Shown here piece by piece: positions 27,327 through 30,300 of a stretch of 64,000 nt of DNA. The notes beneath the pieces are model-generated. The model saw only the letters and a program-made list of their open reading frames with translations, had not been told where the DNA came from and did not search any database. Position 1 is the stretch's first letter. Each line of letters starts with the position of its first letter. Source of the stretch: Guillardia theta CCMP2712 (Eukaryota > Protista > Cryptophyta); NCBI RefSeq assembly GCF_000315625.1, contig NW_005434536.1, forward strand, positions 62,001 to 126,000, read 5' to 3'. The position numbers and the translations under genes were made by a program.

Positions 27327-30300
27327 ATGGAGGGGACGACGCAGGAGAGCCGCAGCTACACCAACAACTTCATGCTCCCGCAGGGGGACGTCGGGGTCAA
27401 CCTCGGGGGCACGATGACGGCCAACTCGACGACCCCGACGATCCAGGACTACGAGGCCGTCTTCGGCCCCGCGGCACGGCAGATCAAGGAGGACACGCAG
27501 CGTCACAAGCGGCACCAGAGGTGGCACCTTCCCGACGTCCTCAAGGGCTCGAACACCTTCCTCGCGGACCGCGTGGACGGGCTCATCACCGACGCCACCA
27601 ACTCTCCTTTTACTAGGAATATCCTCCCCTACGTCTACCTCGAAAACCCCGACCAGAAGCTCAAGTGGAACGTCTGGAGGTTCGACGAGGGCCTGGCCAC
27701 GCGCGTGCCCTACGAGTCGGCTGCTAGGGTTCTGACCCAGAGTAAGACCAGTCAGGCCGCCTACATTACCAGGAACGGCATGGCGATCCAGATGGAGCAC
27801 AACTTCATGATGTCGCCGGCTGGACGCGAGAATTTCAAGCGCCAGTTAATGCAGCTGGTAGGATCCATACAGATGTCCAACGACCTCGACGTCCACCACG
27901 CGCTGCTCCTCGCCCCCAACTACGAGGCCCACCTCCGCGAGAAGTACTACACCACCGAGAAGACGACGCTGCAGCTCATCCGTCAGTACGTCGACAGCTA
28001 CGGGCTCATGCAGAAGCACCCCAACGCTCTTGACATCATGATCGAGGACGCGAAGAACACCCTGAAGACCTGGGGCTCGCCCCCACCCACCTTCCTGATG
28101 TGCAACGGCGCCCTGACCATGCAGATGACCTTCAACCCGGAGAAGACGCAGTACCTCACCAACGGGACCGGTGGTCCTCTTCTTTTGAAGCAGGGACCGG
28201 ATTTGCCGTCCTATAGGGGGCTGAGTATCATTCACTCCAGGAAGTTCTCCATGAACACCGGCGAGCCGCCCAGGGACGTCCTCCGCAGAAGGTCCCGCGT
28301 CGCAGAGCACTACCGCATCAACGGCACCGTCCGCGAGCTCAGGGACAACAAGTGGCGCTTCTACGACCAGTCCAAGGATGGGACCTTCGACCTCACCTTC
28401 AGGGAGCTGCTCGAGCACTCGTGGATCGACTCGGATATTGCAGGCAACGTCACCAAGGATCACCGTCCACGACCCACCGTCGTCCGTCCAAACCGGGAAC
28501 CATACAATAATCCCGATTTCAAGCTCCTCTCCGCACCTCTCCAGCTCACCTCCCCAAACCTCACCGCGGGCGACATCGGGGTGCACTACCCAGAGCAGGC
28601 GGCCAAGGAAGCGGAGGGCTACCACAGGCTGCGGGCGGAGGGCAACCCCTACCACGCCCACGACCTGAACGCGCTGAGGGTGCGGGACAGCATGGACGGT
28701 GCGCTGGCCGTGTCGGCGGGCCTGGGTGGCATCGCCCCCTCCCACGCCATGGCGGTCGACAACGTCTCCACGATGCTCGCCGGCAACAGCGGCGTGCTGC
28801 ACTGGGCGGCGCACCAGTTCCGTCAAAGTCGCGCCTCGCTGAAGGCACCCGAGGGCAAGCAGGACGTGCTGGCGCGGGAGGCCGTGCTGCTCAAGGCCAA
28901 GCGCCTGACACTCAAGGGTGACTCCCTCCACATTGGGTACCAGACGATCCCCAAGGACGAAATCACCGAAGCCCAGGCGGAGTTCAGGAAGCGTCCCTGG
29001 ACGGCACTGGAGATGTCGGCGGCGGTGGGGGTCGTCGGATCTGTGCTCTTCAACGGCATCCGCGCCCCCAACGCGCTCAACCCCCAGGTCCCGGAGTCGG
29101 CGGCGCGGGAGTTCGTCCCTTTCATCCAGTCTTGCTTCTGCCGCTCGATGATGGACTCACCCCTCTGCAACGCGCTGCTCTCCCACGTCAACGTCCCGCT
29201 CGACCTCCAGGGGGAGTTCCTCTCCTTCCTAGGCCTCGCCGACCTCGGCAACCGGGAGGAGCTGGCCGCCGCCCAGGCCGACCGCGACAGCCCCTACTGC
29301 TCCGTGCTCATGGTCAAGTACATCTCCCACGCCCACCCCGACGCTGGCGTGCGGGGAGCGCTGCAGCAAGGTACTCGAGTCCCTGGCCCCCGAAGTCTCC
29401 CGCCAGCTCGATGACACGCTCCTCGACTACAGCAACAAGGTGATTGACTCCCTGGAATCCGGGGCTCAGGCAGGCCTGGACGTCATCTTCCTCACCGGAC
29501 TGGTCCAGAGCTCCACCTCCGAGCGTCTGCGGCCCCGGCGCAAAGACGCCTGCACATCCTCGCGACCTCGACAATGCACGTCAACGCCTCCGGGGACAGC
29601 ATCAGCGACTCCCCAATCTTCAACGGGGACAGCGACGACGAGACCAGCGCACAGCTTGCCTACAACGGGCTGAAGCTCGACTCCGACGCCGTGCTGGGCA
29701 CCGAGTTCCGCTGCTACCCCTTCCCGCTCACCTCCGCCGACCTCTCCTCCGTCGACAGCATCCTGCAGCACAGCCGATTGGCGGAGTACCAGTCTCTTCC
29801 CTCGACGTGGAGGCACTCAGAAAGGACGTCCAGTGCTTTTTTGAAGCTCAAGACAGCCGCGACCATCTCCTCTCCCACCTCTACAGGCTTGCCTTCGCCA
29901 GGATGTTCACCAGCGTCATGCACTACGCTAACGACGCCGCCGCCCCGGGCTGCGTGCTCGCCGCCAAGAGCGCGGTGGGGAACGTCAGGCACACCCTCGG
30001 GGCCAGGATCACCAGCTCCCCACTTGTCATCGATACACCAAATATTGGACTCAACTTTGAAAACACAAACAACGCACTGACGTTCGACGATATCTACAAC
30101 ACCATTGTATCTGACAATGAGACGAACGCGACGCAGACCGTTATCAATGAGCTTCAGAGGCGTAGTCCACTAAATCCAGCAAGAGGTGGGATTGGACCTG
30201 CGCGTGTAACACCAGCCCCCGTCCCCCCAGCAGCACCCCCCGCCGGAGTTGTCGGAGCCCCAAACCGGAACCCCCTCCTGGACTGGTACGTGGATATCGT

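What the first reader, a model, noticed from the sequence alone, without database searches (positions are those of the whole stretch)
29340..29800. MCP frame broken three times within 450 bp, yet one GT-AG excision (29371-29792) would repair it
Seen: coding-like sequence switches frame near 29355-29370, 29535 and 29795, while the other ~3.3 kb is intact. Hypothesis A: three indels (errors or decay), giving a ~1254-aa MCP. Hypothesis B: AAG|GTACTC...TACCAG|TC is a 422-nt spliceosomal intron; removal gives ...LQQ-V-SSLDVEALRK in frame (~1113 aa), meaning former insertion-domain coding sequence was intronised. Known: mirusvirus genes can carry spliceosomal introns. Against B: weak pyrimidine tract and branch point, and chance GT-AG pairs are common.
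Basis: partly seen in the sequence, partly recalled or inferred. Interest (0 to 1): 0.7.

Follow-up and report, generated by a model that had tools for sequence, protein, structure and literature searches.

The report
False intron in mirusvirus capsid gene
The three reading-frame breaks in this mirusvirus capsid gene are likely errors of this one assembled sequence rather than an intron, because contigs of public sequencing runs and near-identical proteins read straight through the same stretch; the gene itself looks ordinary.

Summary
The three frame switches are in the window (about 29353, 29530, 29795), but the intron reading fails. Contigs of DNA-type runs from three studies differ from the window by one base at each break, and no joint was listed. 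One contig matches the window letter for letter over 29333-29413 except at break 1. All 7 of 7 close relatives that carry the flanking capsid insertion also encode the "intron" stretch, including an invariant GTEFRCYPFP motif. Breaks 1 and 3 lie outside the proposed intron, and 152 of 442 local GT..AG pairs would open the frame. Break 2 sits in a 180-base patch of substitutions spread evenly over codon positions. Best reading: a low-quality stretch of this assembly in an intact ~1250-aa HK97-fold mirusvirus major capsid gene (0.8). A privately damaged copy is the rival (0.17); an intron is 0.02. The nearest named proteins come from cryptophyte algae, in which mirusvirus capsid genes are already reported. 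RNA evidence was too thin to use.

The parts
27327..31090 (+). Mirusvirus-type major capsid protein gene, about 1250 aa when read through (an in-frame ATG also lies at 27297)
   Evidence: 445 homologues; near-identical intact proteins P0001, P0121, P0122; HK97 fold predicted for the compact relative P0030
28500..30260 (+). Lineage-specific insertion (tower-like) region between the two conserved parts of the MCP; boundaries approximate
   Evidence: P0030 aligns only to 27351-28430 and 30290-31087; the insertion is shared by P0001-P0005, P0121, P0122 and L001
29353..29356 (+). Break 1: single-base length difference in a one-letter run, upstream of the proposed donor
   Evidence: Shown by contigs of X1-X5 at full listed depth and by part of the X6 depth; the X2 contig otherwise identical to the window also shows it; context
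29530..29531 (+). Break 2: single-base length difference, inside the patch of private substitutions
   Evidence: X1-X5 at full listed depth, X6 at 11 of 16.8
29795..29796 (+). Break 3: single-base length difference of a one-letter run, downstream of the proposed acceptor
   Evidence: X1, X2, X4, X5 and X6 at full listed depth; X3 has no cover
29484..29664 (+). Patch of window-private substitutions, likely low-quality consensus
   Evidence: 13 of 54 residues differ where three close relatives agree, against 5 of 1059 elsewhere; codon positions 7/6/8
29371..29792 (+). Proposed 422-nt intron; rejected, it is conserved coding sequence

Best explanation
The window carries a mirusvirus-type major capsid gene whose three frame breaks are single-base differences from the sequencing contigs of the same gene, and these are likely errors in a short low-quality stretch of this assembly, so the real gene would be one continuous frame of about 1250 codons. 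Shown: the breaks, the one-base differences in contigs at the same three places, intact near-identical proteins, and a local patch of substitutions that ignore codon position. Inferred: that the cause is base-calling or consensus error rather than a real mutation in the DNA that was assembled. On this reading the gene is translated unspliced into an HK97-fold capsid protein with a large insertion (predicted from a relative's model), and the 29371-29792 stretch codes for part of that insertion.
For: (1) Contigs of X1-X5 show the one-base difference at breaks 1 and 2 at their full listed depth; X1, X2, X4, X5 and X6 show it at break 3. X4 spans all three breaks in one contig. These runs come from three studies; X1, X3, X4 and X5 are one sample. 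(2) X2 has two short contigs over 29333-29413, at depth 45 and 59.5. The one with 0 other letters against the window still has the gap at break 1. Their depths add to about the 97-103 of the single contigs downstream. (3) Contigs with the window's own letter at polymorphic sites inside the patch (X3 at 29573, X5 at 29633) lack its private letters a few bases away. (4) P0121, P0122 and P0001 read through in one frame, and L001 has one stop-free 1230-codon frame. (5) The 21 listed patch substitutions fall 7/6/8 on codon positions 1/2/3, against 13 of 16 at third positions outside it (Fisher p 0.018). Transitions to transversions are 6:15 against 10:6 (hand count; p 0.05). (6) Breaks 1 and 3 are length changes of one-letter runs. 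(7) The window equals X3 over 27200-29030 with 0 differences, and neighbouring genes align to L001 each in one frame.
Against: Only contigs were available for DNA, and the tool warns that contigs drop variants and show presence, not absence. One case of that is visible: at 29834 the contigs differ from the window although P0121's residue and 7 RNA reads agree with it. So the contigs over break 3 may show only the other variant. In X6 only part of the depth shows breaks 1 and 2 (14.5 plus 7.9 of 38.4; 11 of 16.8), and most X6 pieces were not listed. About 21 substitutions with one indel in 180 bases is not the indel-dominated pattern expected of pyrosequencing or long reads (own knowledge). The substitution counts use the 40 rows shown of 63 plus rows. 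The reads behind the window itself were not seen.
Confidence: 0.8

Rival explanations
1. The window shows a real but dead copy of the element, one of several in a host genome or culture, that took a local burst of damage (about 21 substitutions and three indels), while sister copies stay intact.
For: Several copies or variants are present: a two-armed bubble in X2, variant stretches at 30140-30278 and 30534-30718, and an ~85% paralog over 27621-28165. Some window-private residues (28623, 28824, 28827) are real, since X3 matches them. PMC10827195 (passages seen) reports 18 MCP homologues in three cryptophyte assemblies and pseudogenisation among eukaryote-borne mirusvirus markers generally. Changes at C dominate the patch (15 of 21, hand count), which clustered damage could also give.
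Against: No listed contig carries any of the three breaks, and the window-type arm in X2 lacks break 1. Damage is confined to about 450 bases while 1.8 kb upstream is identical to X3 and flanking genes are intact against L001. The patch is transversion-rich, unlike methylation-driven decay (own knowledge).
Confidence: 0.17
2. 29371-29792 is a spliceosomal intron newly made from insertion-domain coding sequence; splicing gives a 1113-aa capsid protein.
For: The GT and AG exist and the removal opens the frame. Mirusvirus morphogenesis genes often carry GT-AG introns (PMC12768974, section 8 read), and L006 has an intron-like gap in its MCP.
Against: Breaks 1 (29353) and 3 (29795) lie outside the intron, so the spliced protein would keep off-frame residues at the joint. 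152 of 442 pairs do as well. No WCTAAC, CTGAC or CTRAY is present, and 9 of the last 20 bases before the AG are pyrimidines. GC is 0.65 with full codon bias. The donor's +3 base varies between variants at a third codon position. 7 of 7 relatives keep the stretch, one from a EukProt entry for Hanusia phi. The donor would cut a helix predicted at pLDDT about 80-88 in L001's insertion.
Confidence: 0.02
3. The breaks are read through by programmed frameshifting or polymerase slippage.
For: Breaks 1 and 3 touch short one-letter runs.
Against: Three separate shifts would be needed in the most abundant virion protein. The runs are short, and the close relatives have no break at these places.
Confidence: 0.01

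Closest known systems
Mirusvirus MCPs from cryptophyte assemblies (clade E03 of PMC10827195); database protein P0121, named as a Guillardia theta hypothetical protein
   Same: P0121 tiles the window's MCP in long exact stretches in all four pieces, and also the two upstream genes. The paper's table lists G. theta under E03, and its supplement 3 marks MCP, portal, triplex 2 and maturation protease as present for that genus.
   Different: P0121 has no breaks and differs in 29484-29664 and 30169-30251. It is a fused model of three genes. Placement of the window's MCP in E03 was not tested with a tree.
Spliceosomal introns of mirusvirus morphogenesis genes (PMC12768974)
   Same: GT..AG ends, in an MCP gene.
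   Different: Reported introns peak near 80 bp and have branch consensus motifs. The intron-like gap in L006 is AT-rich (GC 0.37 against 0.52 in coding DNA) with GTGAGT, ACTAAC and CAG signals. The stretch here is GC 0.65, codon-biased and conserved as protein.
HK97-fold capsid proteins (herpesvirus floor domain, tailed phages, encapsulins)
   Same: The model of relative P0030 matches 3bjq_A (Z 11.6, rmsd 4.3, 233 aligned), HHV-6B capsid 6q1f_A (Z 10.0, rmsd 6.0, 416 aligned) and HK97 1ohg_A (Z 9.8, rmsd 5.0, 206 aligned).
   Different: Only 8-12% identity. Foldseek gave no match at E 0.001 or better, though its top six rows were herpesvirus capsids. The window's own protein was not folded.

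Membership tests
Mirusviricota major capsid protein | HK97-type fold | tested here: met
   Tested on the compact relative P0030 (65% and 41% identical to the window's N- and C-terminal parts): model pLDDT 68, top rows HK97-fold capsids at Z 9.5-11.6.
Mirusviricota major capsid protein | Large protein with an insertion splitting the conserved fold (the 'tower' label is recalled, from no call) | tested here: met
   About 1250 aa; conserved parts at 27351-28430 and 30290-31087 flank a ~600-aa insertion.
Mirusviricota major capsid protein | Hit to the published mirusvirus MCP profile and placement in the MCP tree | not testable with these tools
   The profile and reference set are not held. Pfam gave 0 families for the four gene pieces and PHROGs 0 for P0001 and P0030.
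Mirusviricota major capsid protein | Other morphogenesis genes nearby (portal, terminase, triplex, maturation protease) | tested here: inconclusive
   44315-44812 has a weak PHROG head/protease hit (E 0.0016) and 53% relatives in L003 and L005. Portal, terminase and triplex were not identified among the ORFs scanned.
Spliceosomal intron | GT..AG ends that restore the frame | tested here: met
   True, but so for 152 of 442 pairs.
Spliceosomal intron | Branch-point motif and pyrimidine tract | tested here: not met
   No WCTAAC, CTGAC or CTRAY. CYSAC occurs 4 times, the nearest at 29737, about 50 bases before the AG. 9 of 20 pyrimidines.
Spliceosomal intron | Sequence absent from the protein of intact relatives | tested here: not met
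   7 of 7 relatives with the flanking insertion encode it; GTEFRCYPFP is invariant in the 8 rows and in the window.
Spliceosomal intron | All frame disruptions lie inside the excised stretch | tested here: not met
   Breaks at 29353 and 29795 lie outside 29371-29792.
Spliceosomal intron | Junction seen in RNA | tested here: inconclusive
   X20 gave 10 very short laid reads from about 6 in 100 of the run, and no joint.
Decayed endogenous viral element (pseudogene) | Disabling changes supported by independent DNA data | tested here: not met
   No listed contig or 16 carries them; contigs only, so rare copies are not excluded.
Decayed endogenous viral element (pseudogene) | Decay spread over the element | tested here: not met
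   5 of 1059 private residues outside the patch; flanking genes align in single frames to L001. Most genes of the window had no relative to test.
Decayed endogenous viral element (pseudogene) | Junctions with host chromosome | not tested
   No whole genome is held for the window.

The most novel reading that the evidence does not exclude
In one copy of a cryptophyte-associated mirusvirus, a burst of local damage broke the capsid gene, and the host spliceosome rescues it through the chance GT..AG pair, giving a capsid protein with 139 residues of its insertion removed. This would be intron birth from viral coding sequence caught at its first step.
Probability: 0.02. Interest if true: 0.7.

Novelty: not a real feature. 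Interest (0 to 1): 0.1.

Why it matters
As it stands it matters little: it is likely an assembly flaw in a gene of a reported group. It is a caution for intron counts in mirusvirus genomes, because in GC-rich genes about a third of local GT..AG pairs will 'repair' a frameshift (152 of 442 here), so predicted introns that bridge breaks need read support. Had the intron been real, it would have shown a new intron forming out of capsid coding sequence.

Tried and rejected
No whole genome is held for the window. A scan of viral contigs with the C-terminal piece found nothing. No RNA holder was listed. The one raw RNA run laid (X20) gave 10 tiny reads, one inside the proposed intron, and is used neither for nor against splicing. 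Pfam and PHROGs do not recognise the MCP. Foldseek gave no match at E 0.001. The model of L001's insertion is low in confidence (mean pLDDT 50, 8 sequences); only its better-scored helices are cited and it was not used for a fold search. The codon model was trained with one ORF off frame; one search repeats it correctly and is the one cited. Earlier findings of the scan: nothing to show. A paper search for intronization, exonic sequence, frameshift and virus returned 4 papers, none on mirusviruses by title or abstract start; this single search does not show absence from print.

Full report
Observation. The gene runs from an ATG at 27297 or 27327 to a stop at 31090 on the + strand, but no single frame spans it. 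A codon model trained on ten long ORFs of the window switches frame near 29341, 29549 and 29791. The two middle pieces look fully coding, with G/C at 48 of 57 and 80 of 87 third positions. The proposed GT (29371) and AG (29791-29792) are there, and their removal gives an open 1113-aa frame. This is not special: 152 of 442 GT..AG pairs in the neighbourhood do the same, and 60 of them would remove all three breaks.

What the gene is. A search with the N-terminal piece found 445 proteins. The best are P0001 (95%, 1249 aa) and four at 53-56% over the whole query (P0002-P0005, 1258-1269 aa). P0001's cluster holds P0122 (1245 aa) and P0121, named as a Guillardia theta hypothetical protein; P0005 is a EukProt entry for Hanusia phi. 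Both organisms are cryptophyte algae (own knowledge for Hanusia). A compact relative, P0030, was folded with 71 others (pLDDT 68). It matches HK97-fold capsids, among them the HHV-6B capsid protein (Z 10.0, rmsd 6.0, 416 aligned) and 3bjq (Z 11.6, rmsd 4.3, 233 aligned); Foldseek alone was not significant. PMC10827195 (passages and one supplement row seen) describes clade E03 as 18 MCP homologues from three cryptophyte assemblies. I file the gene as a mirusvirus-type MCP likely tied to cryptophytes; the published profile and a tree were not run.

DNA test of the breaks. Of 24 runs listed, 7 were laid. In (X1, X2, X3, X6; X4, X5, X2, X20), contigs differ from the window by one base at 29353, 29530 and 29795. 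X1-X5 show breaks 1 and 2 at their full listed depth; X1, X2, X4, X5 and X6 show break 3 (X3 has no cover there). X4 spans all three in one contig. In X6 only part of the depth shows breaks 1 and 2, and most of its pieces were not listed. X1, X3, X4 and X5 are one sample, so this is three studies, one of which could be the window's source. No joint matching 29370/29793 was listed (15 of 17 joints shown, none found). The clearest datum is in X2: two 80-base contigs cover 29333-29413, one with 6 other letters (depth 59.5) and one with none (depth 45), and both have the gap at break 1. Their depths sum to about the 97-103 of the single contigs that follow. The window's variant is real elsewhere: 0 differences over 27200-29030 in X3, 30140-30278 in X2 and 30534-30718 in X1.

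Protein test. P0121, P0122 and P0001 tile the window in frame 0, then 1, then 0, then 2, with the switches at the same three places. L001 (63% to P0001) has one stop-free 1230-codon frame, and its DNA alignment to the window changes register by the same net steps. Among the 122 proteins held, 7 align to the insertion upstream and downstream of the proposed intron, and the same 7 align to the stretch inside it. GTEFRCYPFP, inside the proposed intron, is invariant. The spliced model loses 139 residues and keeps an off-frame RGALQQ where relatives have RERC or KQRC, because break 1 lies before the donor; break 3 lies just after the acceptor. In a low-confidence model of L001's insertion, the donor position falls in a helix (residues 290-302) within a block scored 79-88.

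Splice signals. No WCTAAC, CTGAC or CTRAY is present; CYSAC occurs four times, the nearest about 50 bases before the AG; 9 of the last 20 bases are pyrimidines. PMC12768974 (section 8 and passages read) gives a length peak near 80 bp and these branch motifs for mirusvirus introns. For contrast, L006 has a gap of about 340 bases in its MCP with GC 0.37 against 0.52 and clear donor, branch and acceptor words. The RNA run gave 10 tiny reads and decides nothing.

Error or decay. Break 2 lies in a patch, 29484-29664, where the window differs at 13 of 54 residues on which three close relatives agree, against 5 of 1059 elsewhere (p 1e-14). The 21 listed substitutions there fall 7, 6 and 8 on codon positions 1, 2 and 3, while 13 of 16 listed differences outside are at third positions (p 0.018). 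Four further sites at 29693-29848 and one at 29834 were left out of that table; the tool also hid 23 of 63 rows. Transitions to transversions are 6:15 inside and 10:6 outside (hand count; p 0.05). So the patch was not filtered by selection: it is error or fresh damage. Error is favoured for three reasons. Contigs with the window's own letter at 29573 (X3) or 29633 (X5) lack its private letters a few bases away. Breaks 1 and 3 are length changes in one-letter runs. The flanking genes align to L001 each in a single frame. Against error: contigs can hide a variant, as at 29834 where P0121 and 7 RNA reads side with the window; several copies are present; and a substitution-rich patch is not the usual signature of indel-prone platforms (own knowledge). 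I put error at 0.8, a real damaged copy at 0.17, an intron at 0.02 and recoding at 0.01.

Verdict. This is an ordinary mirusvirus-type capsid gene, likely mis-assembled over about 450 bases. Interest 0.1. Papers: PMC12768974 (passages, section 8), PMC10827195 (passages, one supplement row); the others were seen as search listings only. The supplements of PMC12768974 were not opened and may list this lineage's intron density.

Noticed in passing
window 27200-31200, runs X1-X5: At least two near-identical variants of the MCP gene at similar depth (bubbles at 29333-29413, 30140-30278, 30534-30718) and a more distant copy with 81 differences over 27621-28165 occur in the same runs.
   Followed up: partly
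window 25588-31090: Database protein P0121 (1742 aa) fuses three neighbouring genes (25588-26067, 26197-27216 and the MCP), likely a gene-model error; L001 has a separate ORF for the membrane-protein gene and for the MCP.
   Followed up: partly
window 49367-50083 (+): Snf7 (ESCRT-III) family gene, Pfam E 1.1e-14.
   Followed up: no
window 44315-44812 (-): Likely capsid maturation protease: weak PHROG hit (E 0.0016), 53% to ORFs near the MCP in L003 and L005.
   Followed up: partly
window 35628-36593 (-): PD-(D/E)XK nuclease family gene, Pfam E 2.8e-8.
   Followed up: no
L006:174-511 and L007 upstream of 441: Intron-like AT-rich gap in the MCP gene of a distant relative, with GTGAGT donor, ACTAAC branch word and CAG acceptor.
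   Followed up: partly
window 30041-30250: Proline-rich, low-GC3 stretch (11-20 of 30 codons) at the end of the MCP insertion that differs strongly between variants and relatives.
   Followed up: no
window 28823-28829: A compensating pair of one-base gaps separates the window (matched by X3) from contigs of X2 and X6, changing two residues.
   Followed up: no
run X6 and protein P0001: A close relative is present in a freshwater metagenome (0.40 of words; contigs laid along the gene), whereas PMC10827195 lists the named cryptophyte as marine.
   Followed up: no
window 15719-17366 and 21607-31090: Gene order is shared with metagenome locus L001 on both blocks.
   Followed up: partly
window 51213-51350: Run of 138 N, a scaffold gap.
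   Followed up: no
window about 5039, 43493, 46008, 52535: Other same-strand frame switches in the codon model; they may be gene boundaries and were not tested against reads.
   Followed up: no
L013:1164-2852: Two stop codons in the MCP span of this distant relative.
   Followed up: no
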